DNA of 64,000 nucleotides from Chloroflexota bacterium. GTDB taxonomy: Bacteria; Chloroflexota; Dehalococcoidia; Lucifugimonadales; UBA3495. Under the pieces are notes generated by a model, which saw nothing but the letters and a program-made list of their open reading frames with translations, did not search any database and was not told the origin of the DNA. Positions 1 through 14,018 of this stretch are shown one piece after another. The stretch covers positions 1,720 to 65,719 of the forward strand of contig VXOH01000036.1 in the NCBI GenBank assembly GCA_009840135.1, in the 5' to 3' direction. Position 1 is the stretch's first letter. Each line of letters starts with the position of its first letter. Position numbers and translations under genes: made by a program.

Positions 1-1143
1 CCCGTGTTCGACTCCAGGGATTGGCGAACTTACCAGCAGGTCAACCGCAAGTTTGCCGATCTTGTGCTGGATGAAGTGGGAGACAGGCCGGCCGTAGTGC
101 TTACCCAGGATTATCACCTGGCCCTGCTTCCCCAGTACCTCAGGGAAGCCGATGCTCCCATAATCACCGGGCAGTTCTGGCACATCCCCTGGCCCCACGC
201 CGAGATCTTCCGCATTTGTCCCTGGCAGTCGGAGCTGGTAGAAGGTCTCCTGGGGAACAATCTCCTGGGGTTCCACATCGGTGACCATTGCAGCAATTTC
301 ATGGATACCGCTTCCAGGACCCTCCCGGTGCGCGTGGACCAGGAATATAACCGCATAGATTACCGGGACGATACTACCCTGGTCCGGCCCTTTCCCATAA
401 GCATAGACTTTGACGATATTTGCCAGTTCTCGGAAAGCCCGGAAGTAACGGAGGAAATGGTAAGAATCCAGGATGAATGGGGTCTGGGCGGACAGATTAT
501 AGGCCTGGGAATTGACCGGGTGGACTACACAAAAGGCATTCCTCACCGCTTCCGCGCCATTGGCAGGTTCTTCGAGAAATACCCGCAATACCTGGGCAAG
601 GTTGTATTCGTTCAGGCCGGAGTCTTGAGCAGGAGCGACATTGAGGCGTACCAGCAACTGGGCGGTCAAATAGACCATCTGGTGGACGAGATTAACGGCC
701 GTTTTGGCCGGGCTGGTTGGCAGCCAATCGTGTACAAGCCCGACGACCTGCCGGCGGTTACTTTGATGGCCCTGCGCCGGCTGTCCCGCTTCTGCATTGT
801 CAGTTCACTGCACGACGGGATGAACCTGGTTGCCAAGGAATTCGTGGCCAGCCGTTTCGATGACGACGGCGTGCTTATTCTCAGCCCCTTTGCCGGAGCT
901 GCTCTTGAGCTGACCCAGTCCCTCATCGTCAACCCCTATGCTACCGAGGAAATGGCCGAAGCCATCCGCGACGCCGTGACCATGCCCCAGACTGAACGTC
1001 GTTACCGGATGCAGCAGATGAGGGGCACAGTCAGGGAGAACAACATTTACAAGTGGGCCGCTCGCCTGCTGGTCGAGCTGATGCAATGTGCCCGCGGCTC
1101 CAAGGTTGGCCGCTCCCTCTATGCGTCCGCTGGAATGCGGTAG
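1..1143 (+). CDS. otsA: Trehalose-6-phosphate synthase (GT20), C-terminal ~380 aa; 5' end lies outside the window
   Basis: Frame 1 is open from the window edge to TAG 1141-1143. Translation shows OtsA blocks (QDYHLALLP, FWHIPWP..EIF, LLGFHIGDH, GIDRVDYTKGI, MNLVAKEF). Confidence 0.9.
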   Translation, partial: PVFDSRDWRTYQQVNRKFADLVLDEVGDRPAVVLTQDYHLALLPQYLREADAPIITGQFWHIPWPHAEIFRICPWQSELVEGLLGNNLLGFHIGDHCSNFMDTASRTLPVRVDQEYNRIDYRDDTTLVRPFPISIDFDDICQFSESPEVTEEMVRIQDEWGLGGQIIGLGIDRVDYTKGIPHRFRAIGRFFEKYPQYLGKVVFVQAGVLSRSDIEAYQQLGGQIDHLVDEINGRFGRAGWQPIVYKPDDLPAVTLMALRRLSRFCIVSSLHDGMNLVAKEFVASRFDDDGVLILSPFAGAALELTQSLIVNPYATEEMAEAIRDAVTMPQTERRYRMQQMRGTVRENNIYKWAARLLVELMQCARGSKVGRSLYASAGMR

Positions 1144-1187
1144 CTGACCGTTAATCCACTCTTTAATGGTCGCCCGCATCTGATATC

Positions 1188-1970
1188 ATGCCCCACTTGC
1201 TGAATGTCTGGCCCAGCGTTCACCGCCGCATAGCCGGGGCAACACACCTGCTGCTTCTGTCTGACTACGACGGTACGCTGGCTCCCATCGCAGCCAGGCC
1301 CGATCTGGCTGTCCTTCCTCACCGCACACGGCTGGCGCTTCACACAATTAACCAGGCGTCCGGTGTTTCCGTGGGAGTAGTGAGTGGGAGAAGTCTTGCA
1401 GATGTTTCGAGCATGGTTGGTCTGCCAGGCTTGATCTACGCGGGAAACCATGGCCTGGAGATTCAGGGCAACGGTCTGGATTTTATTCACCCTGGGGCCG
1501 AAGCCTTGAAGCCTCAGCTGGACAATATTCTGCGCGAATTGGGTGAGAGGGTCGCCGGGATTGAGGGCGCGCTGGTCGAGGGGAAGGGGTTGACGTTGAG
1601 TGTTCACTTTCGACTGACTGCCGAGGACCAGAAACCACGAGTCCACGCCGAGTTTGAAGAAGCAACAAGGGCCTGGCTGCAAGCCGGTGAAGTCCGGGTT
1701 ACCGCAGGGAAAGAAGTCCTGGAAGTTAGGCCAAATATTCCCTGGGACAAGGGCAAGGCCATAGCCAGAATCGCGTCGGAATGTCCGCATGAGGCCCTGG
1801 TAATGTATTTAGGGGATGACCTCACGGACGAAGATGGATTCGCGGTTGTCAACGATCTTAACGGATTGTCAGTTTTTGTGGGTCCGGCCCGGCAGCCTAC
1901 GAGGGCGCTCTACCGGGTGGACTCTCCCTCAGAAGTGGCGACGACTCTGGATCTGATTGCGGCCATCTGA
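1188..1970 (+). CDS. otsB: Trehalose-6-phosphate phosphatase (HAD superfamily)
   Basis: 260 aa, 45 nt downstream of otsA. HAD nucleophile motif LLLSDYDGTLAP, GKEVLEVRP and C-terminal YLGDDLTDEDGF. Ends with TGA. Confidence 0.85.
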   Translation: MPHLLNVWPSVHRRIAGATHLLLLSDYDGTLAPIAARPDLAVLPHRTRLALHTINQASGVSVGVVSGRSLADVSSMVGLPGLIYAGNHGLEIQGNGLDFIHPGAEALKPQLDNILRELGERVAGIEGALVEGKGLTLSVHFRLTAEDQKPRVHAEFEEATRAWLQAGEVRVTAGKEVLEVRPNIPWDKGKAIARIASECPHEALVMYLGDDLTDEDGFAVVNDLNGLSVFVGPARQPTRALYRVDSPSEVATTLDLIAAI

Positions 1971-3531: not shown

Positions 3532-3633
3532 TCTCTTTATTACGCGCGGCGCCCTGAATCTTTTCCCTGCCTGTCCATCCCTTAAACGCCGGTGGGCAGT
3601 TGACTCCCGAAGTCCCAGGATTGGAGGCTCATT

Positions 3634-4269
3634 ATGGTGGAGAATGCTCAACCGCAGGCCAATGGGGCAGACCCGGTTCGGGTGATTGTCTGGTACGACT
3701 ATATTTGACCCTGGTGCTACGTCGGCCTGGAGAGGGTTGACAAGTTGGGCCAGGATTACAACATTGCGGTGGAGGGTCGGGCGTATCTGCTGCGCCCCGA
3801 TACCCCGAAGGATGGGCTGCTGCGTCAGCCCCGTTCCGGTGAGACGGAGGATGAGCTCAGCGAGCCCATCCGGTCCCAGATTCGGGAAGCAAACCTGATA
3901 ATGAAGCCGCCCCAGGTGACACCCAACACCGTCTATGCCCTGGAGGCTACTGAGTACGCCCAGCAGCATGGCAAGTTCATGGAGTTCCACCATGCAGCAT
4001 ATAAGGCGTACTGGGAAGACCGGAAAGACCTGGGAAAGATCGAGGTACTGGCGGAGATAGCGAAGTCTGTTTCCCTGGATGCCGATGAAATGGTTCAATG
4101 CCTTGAAACTCGCGAACTTACGAACCTGGTAATGGGGCAATACCAGGAAGCACTACAGCAGGGAATCCGCGGCATCCCCACCTTTGTAGTTGGGAATCTG
4201 CTCTTTACCGGCGCTCACCCTTATGAAATTTTCAAGTCGGCCATGAACCAGTACCTGGAATCCGGTTAA
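3634..4269 (+). CDS. FrnE/DsbA-like thiol:disulfide oxidoreductase with predicted selenocysteine (UPWC redox motif; TGA at 3706-3708)
   Basis: The ORF track calls only 3745-4269 (TTG start), which lacks the N-terminal strand and active site. The same frame extends upstream to ATG 3634, preceded by GGAGG 3623-3627. It reads MVENAQPQANGADPVRVIVWYDYI[TGA]PWCYVGLERVDKLGQDYN..., matching the DsbA/FrnE W.DY.CP.CY.G motif with TGA at the first Cys. The C-terminus has GIRGIPTFVV and the restored length is 211 aa. Confidence 0.72.
3724..3751 (+). promoter_or_regulatory. Candidate bacterial SECIS-like hairpin for the TGA at 3706
   Basis: GGCCUGG (3724-3730) can pair with UUGGGCC (3745-3751): 4 G-C plus 3 G-U pairs. 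The 14-nt loop contains GGGUUG. The stem starts 16 nt after the UGA. Paired by eye only, not thermodynamically folded. Confidence 0.35.
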
Positions 4270-4295: not shown

Positions 4296-4323
4296 GGGGC
4301 GACCAAAGAGGTCGCCCCTTTTT
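4296..4323 (+). terminator. Rho-independent terminator after the FrnE-like gene
   Basis: GGGGCGACC (4296-4304), loop AAAGA, GGTCGCCCC (4310-4318), followed by TTTTT (4319-4323). Confidence 0.8.
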
Positions 4324-4369
4324 CTGTGCAATGAAAAGCGAGGTAGCGAAGCGTTGCCGCCATTTCCGG

Positions 4370-4399: not shown

Positions 4400-4489
4400 C
4401 CAAATGCAATTTGTTACAGAATTCACGAACTTTTCCTCCGCCGGAATCCTCTCTGACTTGAGGTGGATGGGGCCAAGGAGCCCAAGGTG

Positions 4490-4993
4490 ATGGATGGGCT
4501 GAAAGAAAGAATCAGAAGGGCCGTCCACAATCAACCTCAACCCACAGTTACCATCCTCTCGTCCCTGTTGTCAGTTGAGGACGAGCTTGGCTACATTCCC
4601 AGAGAAGCCGTCGAAGAGGTTGCCGGTTATAACCGGGTAACGGTAAACGACGTATGGGCAGTAGTCTCCTTCTATCCCAATTTCAGGACCGTGCCCCCCT
4701 GTGAGCATCGTATCGAAGTTTGCTGGGGACCCTCCTGCCACCTGGTCGGAGCAATGCCGGTAATCGAATCAGTGCTTGAGGCTGCGGGACTGGCAGAAGA
4801 GGGAGACACGCCCGACGGGAAGTTGACGGTTCGCTATAACACGTGCCTGGGCGCCTGTGCCCTGGCGCCCGTAATGTCCATTGATCATCACCTGGTGGGG
4901 CGTGCGGACCCGAAAAAGGGCAGGGAACTGGTCGGCCGGGCTCTGGATAACAACAGCGGCGACCCACACGAAGGGGCGGGTTTCCGCGGTTAG
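4490..4993 (+). CDS. nuoE: NuoE-like [2Fe-2S] thioredoxin-fold subunit (24-kDa type)
   Basis: Motifs ILSSLL.VEDELGYIP, FYPNF, CWGPSCHLVG and CLGACALAPV (the 4 Cys of the 2Fe-2S site). The maximal ORF starts at GTG 4463. AAGGAG (4475-4480) favours GTG 4487 or ATG 4490 as the start. Confidence 0.85.
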   Translation: MDGLKERIRRAVHNQPQPTVTILSSLLSVEDELGYIPREAVEEVAGYNRVTVNDVWAVVSFYPNFRTVPPCEHRIEVCWGPSCHLVGAMPVIESVLEAAGLAEEGDTPDGKLTVRYNTCLGACALAPVMSIDHHLVGRADPKKGRELVGRALDNNSGDPHEGAGFRG

Positions 4994-5031
4994 GCGGCTG
5001 CCTCAGTGGCCGACACTCGCATGCAGCGACG

Positions 5032-6756
5032 ATGACAGTGACCTTTAACGATATCAAGGAAAAAGCCGACGCCAGATGGAACGAATTGAACTCTGTCCGT
5101 CCGTGGATACGGATAGGTACGGCTCTTTGCGGCCAGGCGGCGGGCGCCGAGGAAGTTGCCGATGCCTTCGACTCAGAACTTGAGGCGCGGGGCTTTGACG
5201 CCACGGTAAGCCGTGTCGGATGCCTGGGCCTCTGCTATGCCGAGCCCCTGGTGGACATTCTCGTACCCGGCCGGGGACGGGTAGTTTACGGCAACGTAGA
5301 TGTTGACATGGTCTCGGACCTGGTTGAGGATCACCTAAAGACAGGCCAGCCTGTTACGGACAATGTTATGGGCTGTCGCGCCCTGGGCTATGTCGGAGAG
5401 GAAATTGATGGGGAACTGGAGTCCCTGGACCAGCACCCCATGCGGGCCAGGGAGCAAAGAATCGCCCTGCGGAACGCCGGTCACATTGACCCCCTGGACA
5501 TTTATCAATATGTCGCCAACGGCGGCTATCATGCGCTGAATCGCGCTCTTACCGAGATCACCGCGGCAGATGTGCTGGAAGAGGTGAATGTTTCGGGATT
5601 GCGAGGGCGAGGCGGCGCCGCTTTTCCTGCCGGTACCAAGTGGCGGTTTCTGGCGGGCTCCAACGCTCCCGACAAGTACATTCTATGCAACTGCGAGGAA
5701 GGTGATCCTGGCGCCTTCAACGACAAGGGGATTCTGGAAAGCGACCCGCATACAGTGGTCGAGGGAATCATCCTGGCGGGGTACGCCACCGGGGCAAACC
5801 ACGGCTACATTTTTATCAGGCATGGTCACGACGGACCCATAGACCGTACCAAGGCAGCCATTGCCCAGGCTTATGAACTGGGATTGCTGGGGGAAAACAT
5901 CCTGGGGTCGGATTTTACCTTTGACCTGGAAGTGGCACTGACGGGAGATTCCTACGTTTCCGGCGAAGAGACCGCCCTTATGGAGGCAATAGAAGGCAGC
6001 CGCGCCATGCCCAGATACCGGCCTCCTTTTCCGGCCCAGGTTGGTGTTTTCGGAAAGCCCACCAACATCAACAACGTCAAAACCATGGCTTACGTACCCG
6101 AGATTGTTGCCAGGGGTGGCGAGTGGTTCGCCGGCATTGGCCACGACAAGAGCACCGGAACCGCCATTCTCTGCCTATCGGGCAACCTGAAATATACGGG
6201 CATGGTGGAAATTCCCATGGGCGTGAATCTTAACGAGGTCCTGTATGAAGTGGCCGGAGGAGTGCCGGGGGGAAAGCAATTGAGCTTCCTTCAGACCGGT
6301 GGCCCGTTGGGCGGCGTGCTGAGCGCCGACGCCACTGACCTGGTGCTGGACTTTGACATTTTTCGCACCGCCGGGGCAATACTGGGTTCCGGAGGCGTTA
6401 TTGCGGCTGATGAAGACACCTGTGTAGTTGACCTGACCAGGGTGTTGATCGCTTTCTGCCAGTATGAGTCATGTGGCAAGTGTTTTCCCTGCCGTATGGG
6501 CATGAGCCACATGCTGGAGGTCCTGGAACGAATCTGCCGGCTGGAAGGCACTTCGGATGACCTGGCGCTGATGAGCAGTATCGGGGAGAATATGCAGGCG
6601 GGATCGCTTTGCGGTCACGGTCAGCTGGGGTTCAATCCGGTAGCTTCTGCCCTTCGTTATTTCCCGGACCAGTTCCAGACGCACATTGTAGAGAAACGGT
6701 GCCCCACCGGGCGTTGCCAAGCGCCCCGCTTTGCTCCCAGTCTCAGTCGCAGATAG
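5032..6756 (+). CDS. nuoF: NuoF-like NADH-binding FMN/[4Fe-4S] subunit with an N-terminal thioredoxin-like 2Fe-2S extension (HoxF/FdsB/HydB-type architecture)
   Basis: 574 aa. GLRGRGGAAFPAGTKW (NADH/FMN site), CNCEEGDPGAF, ESCGKCFPCRMG and SLCGHGQ. The extra N-terminal domain carries CGQAAGA...VGCLGLC. Confidence 0.88.
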   Translation: MTVTFNDIKEKADARWNELNSVRPWIRIGTALCGQAAGAEEVADAFDSELEARGFDATVSRVGCLGLCYAEPLVDILVPGRGRVVYGNVDVDMVSDLVEDHLKTGQPVTDNVMGCRALGYVGEEIDGELESLDQHPMRAREQRIALRNAGHIDPLDIYQYVANGGYHALNRALTEITAADVLEEVNVSGLRGRGGAAFPAGTKWRFLAGSNAPDKYILCNCEEGDPGAFNDKGILESDPHTVVEGIILAGYATGANHGYIFIRHGHDGPIDRTKAAIAQAYELGLLGENILGSDFTFDLEVALTGDSYVSGEETALMEAIEGSRAMPRYRPPFPAQVGVFGKPTNINNVKTMAYVPEIVARGGEWFAGIGHDKSTGTAILCLSGNLKYTGMVEIPMGVNLNEVLYEVAGGVPGGKQLSFLQTGGPLGGVLSADATDLVLDFDIFRTAGAILGSGGVIAADEDTCVVDLTRVLIAFCQYESCGKCFPCRMGMSHMLEVLERICRLEGTSDDLALMSSIGENMQAGSLCGHGQLGFNPVASALRYFPDQFQTHIVEKRCPTGRCQAPRFAPSLSRR

Positions 6757-6799
6757 CTTACCGGCCCTTCAGGCTCAGCCTGAATTGTGAGAAGTATAG

Positions 6800-9637
6800 A
6801 TGCCCGATAACATTACCATTTCCATTGACGGGGTGGAGATAAAGACCCAACCGGGGAAAATGGTGCTGGAAGCGGCTATCGAAGCGGGAATATACATCCC
6901 TTATCTGTGCTACCACCCGGGCATGGACCCCTTTGCCGCCTGCAGGATGTGCGTAGTCTCCGTGGAAGGAGGCAGGGGGTTTCCTGCGGCTTGTACCCTT
7001 CCCGCAGCCGACGGAATGCGCATCCGAAGCGACTCCGAGGACGTGGATGAACTGCGCAGGTCGGTGATGCAGATGCTCATTGCCGAGCATCCTAATGGCT
7101 GTCTTACATGTCACCGTGTGGACATCTGTGGCCCCAGCGATGTTTGCCTAAGGCACGTTTCTGTGAACGACCGTTGTGTCACTTGCCCCAAGAACGAGCG
7201 CTGTGAGTTCAAGGACACGGTTCGCTACCTGGGAATGGAGCTGGAATCCCCTCTGAATTACAAATACAAGCAGGTGCCGCTGGAGGTCTCAGATCCCTTT
7301 TACGACAGGGATTACAACCTGTGCATTGCCTGCGGGCGTTGCGTGCGGGCGTGCGAAGAAATACGTGGCGACGACGCCATTTGTTTCACCGAACGTTCCG
7401 GCAAGGCCCTGATTGGGACGTCGTTTGGCTCTTCCCTGCTGGAGTCGGGCTGCGAATTTTGCGGCGCCTGCATTGATGTGTGCCCGGTGGGCGCGCTGGT
7501 GGAGCGGGACCACAAATGGGAGAAGCCCCGCAGCGTGGAGCAGACCATCTGTCCCCATTGCCCGGTGGGTTGCCAACTTAACCTGGAGCTAGGAGATTCC
7601 GGAGAACTTGTCCGGGTGGTCCCCGAAATTAACGCTCCCTCAAACAGGGGACAGGCTTGCTTTAAGGGGAAATTCGGTCTTGAGTTTCTTAACAGCGGGG
7701 AACGACTGGACAAGCCGCTGATTCGAAAGAACGGGGAGTTGGTGGAATCAAACTGGGATGATGCGCTGGACCTGGTGGCCTCGCGACTGCAGGAATACAA
7801 GGGCGAAGCATTTGCCCTGTTAACGGCCCCTGATTCCACCAACGAAGAGATGTACCTGGCCCAGAAGTTCGCCAGGGTTGCCATGGGCACCAACAGCGTG
7901 GACGTCACTTCGAACCTTTATCCCGAGCTTACCCAGGGGTTGCTTCGAGCTCTGGGCCACGGCGGGGCGACAAATCCCATTTGGGACCTGGAGAAGGCCG
8001 GCAGCGTTCTGGTTTTCAACTCGAACCTGACCGAGGACAACAATGTCCTAGCGCTGCCCATCAAGCGTGCGGCCAAGAACGGGGCCTCCCTCATAATCAT
8101 TGACTCGCGGGAGGTTGAACTCACTCGCCATGCCGATATGTGGCTCCGACCGAGGCCCGGAACCGAGTTGTTGCTTCTCGGCGGTATCCTGCGGGAGGTG
8201 CTCGACCAGGGATTGGTGAAGGAACAATGGGTGGAAGAAAACTGTGAAGATCCCGCTACCCTCTTCTATTACCTGCACAATCTGGACCTGGACGAGGTAG
8301 CCGCGACAACCCAGGTGAGCAGGAACTCCATGGCTCTGGCTGCCGGACAATTCGGTGGCGCGGAATCGAGCGCGGTGTGCTACGGCCTTAACAATGTACC
8401 GTCAGAATTGCAGCGGGATTGCGTAAGCGCCTTGTTGGACCTGGTCCTTTTAACCGGCAACGTGGGCAGGGCCGGGGCTGGCCTTTACCCGGTAAGGCAG
8501 GGAGCCAACGAGCAGGGCTCCTGGGACGTTGGCTGCATTCCCGGCCGGCTGCCCGGTGGCGCTTCTCCGAGAGATGAACGGCGCCGTTCCGAACTTGAAG
8601 AGTTGCTCAATTGTTCCCTTCCCCAGAATCGCGGCTTTGGTGTAACCAATTTTGCCGAGGCCGCCAGGGACGGCATTTTGAAGGCCTTGTTCCTGGTAGG
8701 CGACAGTCCTAACCTTACCAATGGCAACCTGGGCGACGCGGTGACCGCGCTGCAGGAGTTGGACTTCCTGGTGGTCATGGATGCGTTTCTGTCGCCGGCT
8801 GCCCGGGTCGCCGATGTGGTGCTGCCTCGCCGGACCTTCGTGGAAAAGGATGGCACTTTCACGAACCTTGAACGGAGGATTCAACGGCTGAAGCCCGTCC
8901 GGGAATGTGAAGACCAGGGACCGGAAACCGAAAGTGCGGTGTTTGGGCGGCTGGCCCAAAAAATGGGCGCCATGGGGTTTGACTTTCCGTCGGCTGGCGC
9001 AGTTATGGATGAGATTGCTCGGGTGGCGCCATCCTACGCCGGCGTTTCCTATGATCGCCTGGAATCGGAATCCAGGGTCGTGCTGAGGACCGGGTTGGAA
9101 AGCCCCAAGCCTACCCAGATGCTGTACGCCGGACGGGAATACCGCGGTTTACAGTGGCCCGTCTCCGAAGATACAGGGTCTGATACGCCCGTGCTGTACC
9201 AGGAGAGCTTTCCCCTGGGCAAGGCCAATTTAATCGCACCTGAGTTCAGAGTTCCGGAAGACCTGACTGATCCGGACTACCCCCTGTGGTTGGTTCCAGG
9301 CAGGGTGCTCTTGCAGCGGGACCGGGAAACCCGCGTCGAGTTGGAGCAAAGTTCCCGGCGGAACCGTATAGTTCGGGAAGAATTGGTAGAGCTCAGCGGT
9401 ATTGATGCCTCCGCCCAGTCCATACTGGATGGTGACTCGGTTCGTCTGGAGACACCAAGGGGTAGCCTGGCCGGTGTGGCTCGAGTCAGCGATGAGTTGC
9501 CATCGGGAATGGTGGCAATAACTGGCCTGTTCGGACAATTGGCGGTGGATCTTCAGGAATCTGATCATCCCGACCCCATGTCCCAGGCTCCAGGGTTGCA
9601 CGTGACCCCGGCCAGGCTGTTTAAAGTCGCAGAATAG
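6800..9637 (+). CDS. nuoG: NuoG-like Fe-S subunit with a degenerate molybdopterin-oxidoreductase domain (no Cys/Sec Mo ligand)
   Basis: 945 aa. N-terminal 2Fe-2S (YLCYHPGMDPFAACRMCVV), CIACGRCVRACEE, CEFCGACIDVCPVGAL and ICPHCPVGCQLNL. Where formate dehydrogenases carry C-A-R-x-C/U-H, this protein has VTSNLYPE, so it is not a catalytic FDH. No internal TGA. Confidence 0.8.
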   Translation: MPDNITISIDGVEIKTQPGKMVLEAAIEAGIYIPYLCYHPGMDPFAACRMCVVSVEGGRGFPAACTLPAADGMRIRSDSEDVDELRRSVMQMLIAEHPNGCLTCHRVDICGPSDVCLRHVSVNDRCVTCPKNERCEFKDTVRYLGMELESPLNYKYKQVPLEVSDPFYDRDYNLCIACGRCVRACEEIRGDDAICFTERSGKALIGTSFGSSLLESGCEFCGACIDVCPVGALVERDHKWEKPRSVEQTICPHCPVGCQLNLELGDSGELVRVVPEINAPSNRGQACFKGKFGLEFLNSGERLDKPLIRKNGELVESNWDDALDLVASRLQEYKGEAFALLTAPDSTNEEMYLAQKFARVAMGTNSVDVTSNLYPELTQGLLRALGHGGATNPIWDLEKAGSVLVFNSNLTEDNNVLALPIKRAAKNGASLIIIDSREVELTRHADMWLRPRPGTELLLLGGILREVLDQGLVKEQWVEENCEDPATLFYYLHNLDLDEVAATTQVSRNSMALAAGQFGGAESSAVCYGLNNVPSELQRDCVSALLDLVLLTGNVGRAGAGLYPVRQGANEQGSWDVGCIPGRLPGGASPRDERRRSELEELLNCSLPQNRGFGVTNFAEAARDGILKALFLVGDSPNLTNGNLGDAVTALQELDFLVVMDAFLSPAARVADVVLPRRTFVEKDGTFTNLERRIQRLKPVRECEDQGPETESAVFGRLAQKMGAMGFDFPSAGAVMDEIARVAPSYAGVSYDRLESESRVVLRTGLESPKPTQMLYAGREYRGLQWPVSEDTGSDTPVLYQESFPLGKANLIAPEFRVPEDLTDPDYPLWLVPGRVLLQRDRETRVELEQSSRRNRIVREELVELSGIDASAQSILDGDSVRLETPRGSLAGVARVSDELPSGMVAITGLFGQLAVDLQESDHPDPMSQAPGLHVTPARLFKVAE

Positions 9638-9752
9638 CAACAAGGAAATTCAAACCGGCAGTTGCTACAATTAAAGGGTCAGTGAGCGCCGGCTGGAACA
9701 ACACCTGCAGAATGCAGTTGAAGAATTAACTCCCAACACTCAGAGGTGAAGG

Positions 9753-10532
9753 ATGACCATTGGGGAAAACACCGTTGTGGCCGGTGAGGGCGACGATTCT
9801 CGCCCTGCTTACCGTACCGACAGCTTGCCGCAAGCCAACCTGGTCTATCGCAGGGATATAACTGAAGACTTGATGGTTATCAAGCTTGAGCCCCTGGACG
9901 GGCCCTTTTCCTTTAAGCCCGGCCAGTATTGCACCCTGGGAAAGGAAGGCGTAGAACGGGCTTACTCCATAGTCTCGGCTCCCCATGAACCGCAACTGGA
10001 GATTTTTGTCGAGCTGGTGCCCGACGGTGAACTGACGCCTAAGATGTGGCGGCTTCAACCCGGGGAGAACATGTCCCTCAGGCCCCGCCCCAAGGGGATA
10101 TTTACCCTCAACGAGAAGGTTCACCACCACCTGATGGTGGCCACGGTTACCGGTGTTGGACCCTATTTGAGCATCATACGCGAGTACCTGCACCAGGGTG
10201 GCGAGGGCCATCACTTCTATGTGCTTTTGGGGGCCAGCTACCAGGACGAGCTTACCTACGACACTGAGTTGGTCAGGCTGGCCGAGGAACACCCGGAATG
10301 CGTAAAGTTTGTGGCAACTGTCAGCCGGCCCCAGGAAGAGCGTAACGTGGACTGGGAGGGTGAAAAGGGAAGGGTCAACAATATCGTCCTGAAATACCTG
10401 GAAGAGTTCAACCTGCCGAAGGACGACACCATGGTTTATACCTGCGGCCACCCGGGCATGATTGAGGACGTAAGGGAGCAGGTGACACCGCTGGGCTGGC
10501 AGTTCAAGGAAGAGCGATTCTGGAAAGAGTAG
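9753..10532 (+). CDS. fpr: Ferredoxin/flavodoxin-NADP(+) reductase (FNR family)
   Basis: 259 aa. RAYSIVS (FAD RxYS motif), MVATVTGVGPYLS (NADP GxGxxP) and YTCGHPGM. RBS GAGGTGAAGG lies upstream of the ATG. Confidence 0.8.
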   Translation: MTIGENTVVAGEGDDSRPAYRTDSLPQANLVYRRDITEDLMVIKLEPLDGPFSFKPGQYCTLGKEGVERAYSIVSAPHEPQLEIFVELVPDGELTPKMWRLQPGENMSLRPRPKGIFTLNEKVHHHLMVATVTGVGPYLSIIREYLHQGGEGHHFYVLLGASYQDELTYDTELVRLAEEHPECVKFVATVSRPQEERNVDWEGEKGRVNNIVLKYLEEFNLPKDDTMVYTCGHPGMIEDVREQVTPLGWQFKEERFWKE

Positions 10533-13469: not shown

Positions 13470-13661
13470 TCAGGCAGCCGCGAGGATGTTTGTTTTACGG
13501 GACAACCGGAATCATTGCCTTGCATTTCAAAAAGAGCCCGGCTTCAGTAATCCGGTGCAGGCGGATTCCGCGATTTCGAATCTCTGGAATCGGCCCGCCG
13601 GATTCTCGATAGTTCACCCCGGATTGCAGGGGCAGGGACAACCCAATGATTTGGAGGACTT

Positions 13662-14018
13662 ATGAGCTCAGCCGTGTTTTACTGGTGGCCGCGTTGATCA
13701 TCCTGTCGGAAAGCGAGAGAGTTGCTCTTGCAGAAAGGACTGGAACTGGAGGAACGGGACTACTTTAAAGACCCCCTTAACGAAACGGAACTCATGGATC
13801 TGGCTTCGATGGCGTCTCTTTCTGACCTGTTCGCGTGGCGCAGTCCCAGTTTCAAAAAATTGGGCCTGCCCAGCCAGGACATTTCCGAGCAGCAGATGGT
13901 CAAGTTGATCCTGGATGAGCCCAGGTTGCTGCGCCGGCCGATCACCAGGCTGGCAGACAGACTGATCATCGGGTCGAGCCCAAAGCAGATGGAGCAGGAA
14001 CTGGCCAACCTGCCGTAA
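13662..14018 (+). CDS. ArsC/Spx/YffB-family small redox protein with predicted selenocysteine (USSC motif; TGA at 13695-13697)
   Basis: The ORF track calls only 13722-14018 (TTG). The same frame extends to ATG 13662, preceded by GGAGGA 13653-13658. It reads MSSAVFYWWPR[TGA]SSCRKARELLLQKGLELEERDYFKDPL..., matching the family motif (I)YG.K.C..CRKA..WL...G.....D. with TGA at the first Cys. Restored length is 118 aa. Confidence 0.72.
13713..13731 (+). promoter_or_regulatory. Candidate SECIS-like hairpin for the TGA at 13695
   Basis: GCGAGAG (13713-13719) pairs with CUCUUGC (13725-13731): 7 bp including one G-U. The loop is AGUUG. The stem starts 16 nt after the UGA. Confidence 0.45.

What the first reader, a model, noticed from the sequence alone, without database searches (positions are those of the whole stretch)
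3634..4269. In-frame TGA at the first Cys of the CxxC motif: a selenocysteine FrnE/DsbA-like oxidoreductase hidden behind a truncated ORF call
**What the sequence shows.**
- The ORF track starts this gene at TTG 3745, which deletes the beta1 strand and the redox motif that define the family.
- Reading the same frame upstream gives GGAGG (3623-3627), ATG 3634, then MVENAQPQANGADPVRVIVWYDYI-TGA(3706-3708)-PWCYVGLERV...
- That is the DsbA/FrnE signature W.DY.C-P-x-C-Y.G, with TGA exactly at the N-terminal nucleophilic Cys.
- The restored length of 211 aa is canonical for the family.
- TGA is a genuine stop in this genome (otsB, mutS, nuoD, nuoI, nuoJ, nuoK and nuoL all end with it), so a global reassignment is unlikely.
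- A 7-bp stem (3724-3730 / 3745-3751) with a GGGUUG-containing loop begins 16 nt after the UGA, the spacing expected for a bacterial SECIS.

**Why it matters.** Standard gene callers would annotate this as a shortened, inactive-looking protein.
Basis: partly seen in the sequence, partly recalled or inferred. Interest (0 to 1): 0.75.

Follow-up and report, generated by a model that had tools for sequence, protein, structure and literature searches.

The report
Selenocysteine DsbA/FrnE-like oxidoreductase, mis-called short
This is a real gene for a small redox enzyme whose active-site cysteine is replaced by selenocysteine, encoded by a TGA "stop" codon; gene callers truncate it in public data, but this kind of selenoprotein has been known since 2005.

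Summary
Window 3634-4269 (+) encodes a 211-aa DsbA/FrnE-type thioredoxin-fold protein. Its in-frame TGA (3706-3708) aligns with the first Cys of the CPWC active site.

Evidence for recoding:
- 48 orthologs from Dehalococcoidia/SAR202 genomes (58-91% identity) all carry TGA there, never TAA or TAG, with coding-type conservation on both sides.
- Synonymous variation collapses 12-36 nt after the UGA, over a hairpin that nearly every sequence can form (3721-3741; small loop starting with GG).
- TGA still terminates otsB and mutS in the window, and 8 of the orthologs themselves.
- The window holds a second gene of this type, an ArsC/Spx-family ORF with TGA at 13695-13697. Related contigs hold a third (ArsM-like). 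Each has its own downstream hairpin.

Gaps: no selA/B/D or tRNA-Sec lies in the ~1 Mb available, so the machinery could not be checked. The hairpin has no compensatory covariation and no Rfam match.

Novelty: DsbA-like UxxC selenoproteins (COG2761/PF01323) were described from Sargasso Sea metagenomes in 2005. This is a new member of a known kind. All 120 best database relatives are N-terminally truncated calls.

The parts
3623..3627 (+). Shine-Dalgarno-like GGAGG, 6 nt upstream of the ATG
   Evidence: Read directly from the sequence.
3634..4269 (+). Full coding sequence of the DsbA/FrnE-like selenoprotein: 211 aa, Sec at codon 25, stop TAA 4267-4269
   Evidence: Translation. Pfam DSBA E = 9e-31 over residues 17-204. 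FrnE structures match at E = 2e-13 over residues 12-206. 48 orthologs share this architecture, 36 of 49 sequences with the start codon exactly 24 codons before the TGA (ATG in all but L008, which has GTG).
3706..3708 (+). In-frame TGA read as selenocysteine (U25 of the U-P-W-C active site)
   Evidence: TGA in 49 of 49 sequences, never TAA or TAG. It aligns with the first Cys of CPWC in 5cnw and 3gl5. U-P-W-C is invariant.
3721..3741 (+). Candidate SECIS core: stem 3721-3728 / 3734-3741 with apical loop GGAGA 3729-3733, starting 12-13 nt after the UGA
   Evidence: 91% of cells pair, and core pairs hold in 32-33 of 33 sequences. Normalised codon entropy over codons 30-37 is 0.25 against 0.78 for the rest of the gene, the lowest of 146 sliding windows, permutation p < 1e-5. 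Leu32 is CTG in 49 of 49, which places an invariant G at the first loop position. Val35 is only GTC or GTT, both of which pair with G.
3710..3754 (+). Extended hairpin in this window only: a lower stem (3710-3715 / 3749-3754) around the core
   Evidence: Minimum-free-energy fold of -24 kcal/mol, z = -1.5 against shuffles. The lower stem is not kept in relatives (alignment).
4296..4328 (+). Intrinsic terminator after the gene (GGGGCGACC-AAAGA-GGTCGCCCC followed by a T-run)
   Evidence: Terminator scan.
13662..14018 (+). Second selenoprotein-type gene in the window: ArsC/Spx-family protein (PF03960), 118 aa, TGA 13695-13697 at the N-terminal redox Cys (FYWWPR-U-SSC-RKA), GGAGG 13653-13657, stop TAA 14016-14018
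   Evidence: Comparative TGA screen. Translation. Pfam ArsC E = 1e-16 and a weak NCBIfam hit to 'ArsC family (seleno)protein'. TGA is conserved in 11 sequences. Coordinates. The public gene call is truncated to 98 aa.
13713..13731 (+). Hairpin GCGAGAG-AGUUG-CUCUUGC, 15 nt after the second UGA (candidate SECIS of the ArsC-like gene)
   Evidence: Predicted in 9 of 11 orthologs, with A-U to G-U one-sided changes.

Best explanation
Window 3634-4269 is an intact gene for a cytoplasmic DsbA/FrnE-type thiol-disulfide oxidoreductase with a selenocysteine-containing U-P-W-C active site.

Shown:
- The reading frame continues through TGA 3706-3708.
- The TGA and the protein on both sides are conserved in 48 Dehalococcoidia/SAR202 species.
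- The TGA sits where solved homologs have the nucleophilic Cys.
- A short hairpin 12-13 nt downstream is under RNA-level (synonymous-site) constraint.

Inferred:
- During translation, SelB-GTP carrying Sec-tRNA(Sec) binds this hairpin (a bacterial SECIS) and delivers Sec to the UGA in competition with RF2.
- The product uses Sec25 as the attacking nucleophile and Cys28 as the resolving residue, cycling through a selenenylsulfide, next to the invariant cis-Pro loop G-I-P-T-F.
- It acts on cytoplasmic thiol/disulfide substrates, as FrnE does.

The genome uses Sec more widely. An ArsC/Spx-family gene 10 kb downstream has the same TGA-at-Cys plus hairpin layout.
For: - TGA at the same codon in 49 of 49 sequences, never TAA or TAG. 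VRVxVWYDY[IV] upstream and PWCY[VI]GLERV downstream are conserved, with free wobble variation upstream (for example Val15 uses all four codons).
- All 120 best database relatives are 147-183 aa and cover only 69-84% of the query. They are truncated calls, which implies the TGA is clade-wide.
- Pfam DSBA E = 9e-31 across the TGA. The TGA aligns with the first Cys of CPWC in FrnE 5cnw and SCO1869 3gl5.
- U-P-W-C and G-I-P-T-F are invariant in 49 of 49.
- Synonymous variation over codons 30-37 is 0.25 against 0.78, the lowest window in the gene, p < 1e-5. It coincides with a stem kept in 91% of cells.
- The loop begins with an invariant GG. [quoted passage not shown]
- TGA is a normal stop for otsB and mutS in the window and for 8 of the orthologs themselves.
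- Independent TGA-at-redox-Cys genes of known selenoprotein families occur on the same or related contigs: ArsC-like (in the window and 10 loci) and ArsM-like (4 loci). Each has a hairpin 10-15 nt downstream and a U just before the UGA.
- The gene has its own RBS and terminator.
Against: - No selA, selB, selD or tRNA-Sec lies in the window or the 48 loci. The rest of these genomes could not be searched, so the Sec machinery is unverified.
- The hairpin has no compensatory covariation, because it is nearly invariant.
- Its stability in the window is only z = -1.5 against shuffles.
- No Rfam family matches, even at E <= 10.
- There is no protein-level or selenium-labelling evidence.
Confidence: 0.9

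Rival explanations
1. The gene is a pseudogene, or the TGA is a sequencing or assembly error, and nothing functional is made from the upstream part.
For: A single in-frame stop in one metagenome scaffold would look like this if seen alone.
Against: The same TGA occurs in 49 of 49 independent assemblies at 58-91% protein identity. Amino-acid conservation with synonymous change is seen on both sides, and the start codon 24 codons upstream is conserved.
Confidence: 0.01
2. The real product is the short protein started downstream of the TGA (TTG 3745 in the window), as public gene callers annotate it.
For: An SD-like GGAGAGG lies about 8 nt before TTG 3745. All public calls are of this short type.
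Against: - The internal start is not conserved. Codon 38 is CTG in 27 sequences, TTG in 13 and other Leu codons in the rest. Called lengths scatter from 147 to 183 aa.
- The short form lacks strand beta-1 and the whole active-site motif that Pfam DSBA and FrnE align to.
- Residues 14-24 upstream of the TGA are under protein-level constraint.
Confidence: 0.03
3. TGA is reassigned genome-wide to a standard amino acid in this lineage (as in genetic codes 4 or 25), so the residue is Trp or Gly rather than Sec.
For: None specific. It would also produce truncated calls under table 11.
Against: - TGA terminates otsB and mutS at the ends of complete Pfam-matched domains in the same window.
- TGA terminates 8 of the DsbA-like orthologs themselves.
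- Strict filtering of the comparative screen left only three gene families with a conserved in-frame TGA in about 1 Mb. In all three the TGA sits where the Cys-substituted sequence matches a redox family with known selenoprotein members.
Confidence: 0.01
4. The UGA is read through without the canonical SelB/SECIS pathway. Examples would be near-cognate or Cys-tRNA decoding, or a non-canonical recoding factor. The conserved hairpin would then merely slow termination.
For: The Sec machinery could not be examined. The hairpin matches no curated SECIS model.
Against: - The position is exactly the catalytic Cys of a redox motif, which is the hallmark of Sec/Cys pairs.
- The family (DsbA-like UxxC), the ArsC-like family and the ArsM family are all established selenoprotein families.
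- Chloroflexi are documented Sec users (PMC1794560).
- The hairpins fit the published bacterial SECIS description.
Confidence: 0.05

Closest known systems
DsbA-like selenoprotein family ('DsbA-like protein form 1', PF01323/COG2761, UxxC). First described by Zhang, Fomenko and Gladyshev 2005 from the Sargasso Sea. Also found in Anaeromyxobacter dehalogenans, Desulfovibrio desulfuricans and Desulfotomaculum reducens.
   Same: Same Pfam domain, same UxxC motif with Sec at the N-terminal position, and a SECIS-like hairpin immediately after the UGA with a G in a small apical loop. A marine metagenomic origin is plausible.
   Different: This clade is in Dehalococcoidia/SAR202 (Chloroflexota). I could not obtain the published representatives (AACY01178397, NIP15863.1) to test whether they are orthologs. 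No full-length version of this clade appears among the 120 best database relatives.
Deinococcus radiodurans FrnE (PDB 5cnw, 5cp1) and Streptomyces SCO1869 (3gl5): cytoplasmic DsbA-family oxidoreductases with a CPWC site
   Same: They are the best solved-structure relatives (E = 2e-13 and 5e-12), aligned over residues 12-206. The x-P-W-C-Y-[IV]-G active-site context is identical and the G-[IV]-P-F/T-F cis-Pro loop is shared. No N-terminal signal peptide is visible.
   Different: The first active-site residue here is Sec rather than Cys. The protein stops at 211 aa, so it lacks the roughly 40-residue C-terminal extension of the 260-aa FrnE chain (the alignment ends at FrnE residue 217). It also has no additional conserved Cys.
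Escherichia coli fdhF-type bacterial SECIS (from established knowledge: a hairpin directly 3' of the UGA whose apical loop binds SelB)
   Same: It is an in-ORF hairpin beginning about a dozen nucleotides after the UGA, with a short upper stem and a small loop carrying conserved G residues.
   Different: The sequence is unrelated and no Rfam model matches. SelB binding is untested. This lineage additionally keeps a U immediately 5' of the UGA in all three gene families.
ArsC-family selenoproteins (NCBIfam NF041106 'ArsC family (seleno)protein'; Sargasso Sea 'arsenate reductase UxxS'). This is the comparison for the second gene at 13662-14018.
   Same: PF03960 domain, with TGA at the N-terminal redox Cys.
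   Different: The motif here is U-S-S-C. The NF041106 score of 37 bits is below the 85-bit cut-off. The best NCBIfam match is the Spx/MgsR-ArsC-related subfamily, also below its cut-off.

Membership tests
DsbA-like selenoprotein family (PF01323/COG2761, UxxC) | DSBA thioredoxin-like domain above Pfam's gathering score | tested here: met
   PF01323 scores 107.5 bits against a cut-off of 25.6, over residues 17-204 of 211.
DsbA-like selenoprotein family (PF01323/COG2761, UxxC) | In-frame TGA aligned with the N-terminal Cys of the CxxC motif of Cys-containing homologs | tested here: met
   The TGA aligns with the first Cys of CPWC in 5cnw/5cp1 and 3gl5. U-P-W-C is invariant in 49 of 49.
DsbA-like selenoprotein family (PF01323/COG2761, UxxC) | TGA conserved in orthologs, with coding conservation on both flanks | tested here: met
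   49 of 49 sequences have TGA. Upstream codons vary at wobble positions while the amino acids are kept.
DsbA-like selenoprotein family (PF01323/COG2761, UxxC) | Bacterial SECIS-like stem-loop immediately downstream of the UGA, with a small apical loop containing G | tested here: met
   Stem 3721-3728 / 3734-3741 with loop GGAGA. It pairs in 91% of cells across 33 sequences and lies under the strongest synonymous constraint in the gene. Caveats: no covariation, z = -1.5, and no Rfam hit.
DsbA-like selenoprotein family (PF01323/COG2761, UxxC) | Sec-decoding machinery (selA, selB, selC/tRNA-Sec, selD) in the same genome | not testable with these tools
   None was found in the 64-kb window or the 48 flanking loci. 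Indirect support comes from two other TGA-at-Cys selenoprotein-family genes on the same or related contigs.
DsbA-like selenoprotein family (PF01323/COG2761, UxxC) | Selenium actually incorporated at the UGA position | not testable with these tools
   This needs mass spectrometry or 75Se labelling.
FrnE subgroup of cytoplasmic DsbA-family oxidoreductases (D. radiodurans FrnE) | Closest sequence similarity to FrnE-type structures, with the x-P-W-C active-site context | tested here: met
   5cnw/5cp1 match at E = 2e-13 over residues 12-206.
FrnE subgroup of cytoplasmic DsbA-family oxidoreductases (D. radiodurans FrnE) | C-terminal extension beyond the DsbA domain (the FrnE chain is 260 aa) | tested here: not met
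   The alignment ends at FrnE residue 217, and the window protein ends at residue 211. The only Cys residues are at 25, 28 and the non-conserved 156.
Periplasmic DsbA (E. coli type) | N-terminal signal peptide for export | tested here: not met
   The N-terminus MVENAQPQANGADPVRV is hydrophilic and leads directly into strand beta-1. The same holds in the orthologs. This was judged by eye; no predictor was run.
Curated Rfam RNA families, any (a bacterial SECIS model would have been included) | Match to a curated covariance model | tested here: not met
   There were no matches at gathering score in the window, and none at E <= 10 on 3680-3790 or 13670-13780.

The most novel reading that the evidence does not exclude
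The UGA codons of these Dehalococcoidia/SAR202 genes might be recoded by something other than the canonical SelA/SelB/SelC/SelD pathway. The machinery could not be inspected, no curated SECIS model matches, and all three gene families share an unusual invariant U just before the UGA. A milder version is much more likely: SAR202 and its relatives carry a clade-wide, so far unannotated selenoproteome (at least DsbA-like, ArsC-like and ArsM-like) with a lineage-specific SECIS flavour.
Probability: 0.05. Interest if true: 0.8.

Novelty: new member of a known kind. Interest (0 to 1): 0.3.

Why it matters
Practically, a whole clade of abundant marine and sponge-associated Chloroflexota has this enzyme annotated as an N-terminally truncated protein with no active site. 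All 120 best database relatives are truncated, as is the source scaffold's own gene call. The ArsC-like neighbour is truncated in the source scaffold's call in the same way. Correcting these calls restores redox enzymes to metabolic reconstructions. It also indicates that these organisms depend on selenium, which the two SAR202 genome papers I checked never mention. Conceptually it adds nothing new, because Sec-for-Cys replacement in DsbA-like proteins was reported in 2005.

Tried and rejected
- **tRNA-Sec and Rfam.** ARAGORN found no tRNA of any kind in the window or the 48 loci. My own ARAGORN run also returned nothing. Rfam found nothing at gathering score or at E <= 10.
- **Sec machinery.** tblastn with E. 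coli SelA, SelB and SelD (fetched) against the window plus loci gave no hit at E <= 1e-3. The machinery is therefore not linked to this gene.
- **Representative-protein search.** For the same reason I did not attempt structure prediction; the alignment to solved FrnE structures served instead.
- **Consensus folding.** RNAalifold gave only a 6-pair stem with no covariation.
- **TGA screens.** The first naive read-through scan of the window and the unfiltered comparative screen were dominated by off-frame artefacts. Only strict filtering was informative.
- **Literature.** Searches for SAR202 together with selenium terms found only reference-list hits on an author's name.
- **Further protein-database searches for SelA/B/D.** I decided against these. 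With only E. coli queries available, the 120 best hits would all be enterobacterial.

Full report
**Observation**

The sequence is as described. GGAGG lies at 3623-3627 and ATG at 3634. The frame reads MVENAQPQANGADPVRVIVWYDYI, then TGA (3706-3708), then PWCYVGLERV..., ending at TAA 4267-4269. The mechanical ORF list begins the gene at TTG 3745, giving 174 aa.

With the TGA written as Cys, Pfam DSBA (PF01323) matches residues 17-204 to profile positions 2-190 of 191 at E = 9e-31, so the domain runs through the TGA. The best solved relatives are Deinococcus radiodurans FrnE (5cnw/5cp1, E = 2e-13) and Streptomyces SCO1869 (3gl5). In both alignments the TGA falls on the first Cys of CPWC.

**Comparative evidence**

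A search of 5.8 billion proteins returned 435 relatives. Every one of the 120 best is 147-183 aa long and covers only 69-84% of the query, so all are missing the N-terminus.

A scan of one genome per species found 48 loci in Dehalococcoidia, SAR202 and other Chloroflexota MAGs, at 61-91% identity to the window protein in the tblastn matches. The tblastn alignments begin at residue 1.

- Translating upstream shows a stop at the homologous codon in all of them, flanked by VRVxVWYDY[IV] and PWCY[VI]GLERV.
- The codon is TGA in 49 of 49 sequences, never TAA or TAG.
- In 36 of 49 sequences the start codon lies exactly 24 codons upstream (ATG in all but L008, which has GTG).
- Eight orthologs end their own ORF with TGA.
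- Upstream codons vary freely at wobble positions while the amino acids are kept. Val15, for example, uses all four codons. The upstream part is therefore translated.
- U-P-W-C and the cis-Pro loop G-I-P-T-F are invariant. The only other Cys (C156) is not conserved.

These results exclude a pseudogene or a sequencing error. The internal start is also not conserved: codon 38 is CTG in 27 sequences and TTG in 13.

**RNA element**

The window's minimum-free-energy fold places a hairpin at 3710-3754 (-24 kcal/mol), but it is only z = -1.5 relative to shuffles.

The informative signal is the synonymous-site constraint. Across the 49-sequence codon alignment, normalised codon entropy over codons 30-37 is 0.25, against 0.78 for the rest of the gene. 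This is the lowest of 146 sliding windows, with permutation p < 1e-5.

- GTC is used in 35 of 35 Val30 codons, GGC in 48 of 49, CTG in 49 of 49 and GAC in 41 of 41.
- Val35 is only GTC or GTT, both of which pair with G, and never GTA or GTG.

This stretch forms the stem 3721-3728 / 3734-3741 with loop GGAGA. The stem pairs in 91% of cells, with core pairs kept in 32-33 of 33 sequences. The first loop nucleotide is the invariant wobble G of Leu32.

In relatives it pairs in only 75% of cells, with three pairs broken in 30-67% of sequences. It also does not explain the wobble pattern.

Weaknesses remain. There is no compensatory covariation, because the stem is almost invariant, and there is no Rfam match. 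[quoted passage not shown]

**Is Sec used in this genome?**

No tRNA and no SelA, SelB or SelD homolog lies in the window or the 48 loci. The rest of the genomes could not be searched, so the machinery is unverified.

Indirect evidence is good.

- TGA is an ordinary stop for otsB and mutS in this window.
- A comparative screen for TGA aligned to TGA or Cys with conserved flanks, run over about 1 Mb, recovered three gene families after strict filtering.
  - One is the DsbA-like gene.
  - The second is an ArsC/Spx-family gene (PF03960) in the window itself: GGAGG 13653-13657, ATG 13662, TGA 13695-13697 in FYWWPR-U-SSC-RKA, and TAA 14016-14018. Its TGA is conserved in 11 sequences.
  - The third is an ArsM-type methyltransferase with DLWTA-U-IGGAL, in four more distant loci.
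- ArsC-like and arsenite methyltransferase are both established selenoprotein families.
- Each gene has a hairpin 10-15 nt after its UGA. The ArsC-like hairpin is GCGAGAG-AGUUG-CUCUUGC and the ArsM-like one is CUCUCC-UGGA-GGGAGAG.
- All three families keep a U immediately 5' of the UGA: ATT or GTT in 49 of 49, CGT in 11 of 11 and GCT in 4 of 4.
- Chloroflexi are documented Sec users (PMC1794560).

**Mechanism**

Shown:
- an intact 211-aa reading frame through a conserved TGA at the catalytic position;
- a constrained hairpin downstream;
- the gene's own RBS and terminator (4296-4328).

Inferred from established knowledge of bacterial Sec insertion and of DsbA/FrnE chemistry:
- SelB carrying Sec-tRNA(Sec) binds the hairpin and decodes the UGA.
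- The protein is cytoplasmic. It has no signal peptide by eye.
- It uses Sec25 as the nucleophile and Cys28 as the resolving residue.

The gene sits just upstream of a NuoE-like, NuoF-like and molybdopterin-oxidoreductase (FdhA/NuoG-like) cluster. I have no evidence of a functional link.

**Comparison with known systems and novelty**

The 'DsbA-like protein' family (COG2761, UxxC) was reported as a selenoprotein family with 9 sequences from the Sargasso Sea in 2005. It was later found in Anaeromyxobacter, Desulfovibrio and Desulfotomaculum. A 2026 review lists it as 'DsbA-like protein form 1, PF01323, UxxC'.

The window gene meets every sequence-level criterion of that family. The machinery and selenium-incorporation criteria could not be tested.

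Relative to FrnE it lacks the C-terminal extension. It is not a periplasmic DsbA.

It is therefore a new member of a known kind. What is new is modest:
- the clade (at least 48 Dehalococcoidia/SAR202 species);
- its uniform mis-annotation;
- the absence of any mention of selenium in the SAR202 genome papers I checked.

**Source**

The window is from ENA metagenome assembly ERZ23491722, scaffold_346 (67 kb). There the DsbA-like gene is called as 174 aa and the ArsC-like gene as 98 aa.

Noticed in passing
window 13653-14018 (+): A second TGA-interrupted redox gene: an ArsC/Spx-family protein (PF03960) with TGA 13695-13697 at the N-terminal Cys (FYWWPR-U-SSC-RKA) and a conserved hairpin at 13713-13731. 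The TGA is conserved in 10 related loci, and the public gene call is truncated to 98 aa.
   Followed up: yes
L017, L018, L022 and L047, minus strand (TGA about 5.5 kb downstream of the DsbA-like gene's TGA; for example L022 TGA at 9631, L047 at 15108): An ArsM-type SAM methyltransferase with an in-frame TGA at DLWTA-U-IGGAL, followed by a hairpin CUCUCC-UGGA-GGGAGAG. The best NCBIfam hits are arsenite methyltransferase selenoprotein models, all below their cut-offs. A Cys-free or paralogous copy lies next to it.
   Followed up: partly
window 3703-3705 and 13692-13694; homologous positions in the loci: The nucleotide immediately 5' of every candidate Sec UGA is U. The preceding codon is ATT or GTT in 49 of 49, CGT in 11 of 11 and GCT in 4 of 4, even though the amino acids have 3-6 synonymous codons. 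This may be a lineage-specific context requirement for recoding.
   Followed up: partly
window 4463-10532 (+): Directly downstream of the DsbA-like gene lies a cluster: a NuoE-like 2Fe-2S protein, a NuoF-like FMN/4Fe-4S protein, a 945-aa molybdopterin oxidoreductase with NuoG-like N-terminal Fe-S domains (NAD-linked formate-dehydrogenase type, an uninterrupted ORF and so not a Sec form), and an FNR-like NAD-binding protein. This gene order recurs in the source scaffold's gene calls.
   Followed up: partly
window 4-1970 (+): Trehalose synthesis pair otsA (GT20, cut off at the window start) and otsB. otsB ends in TGA, which shows that TGA is a normal stop here.
   Followed up: yes
window 1-64000 and loci L001-L048: ARAGORN finds no tRNA gene at all in the 64-kb window or in about 0.9 Mb of syntenic loci. 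This is probably because all loci sample the same neighbourhood.
   Followed up: no
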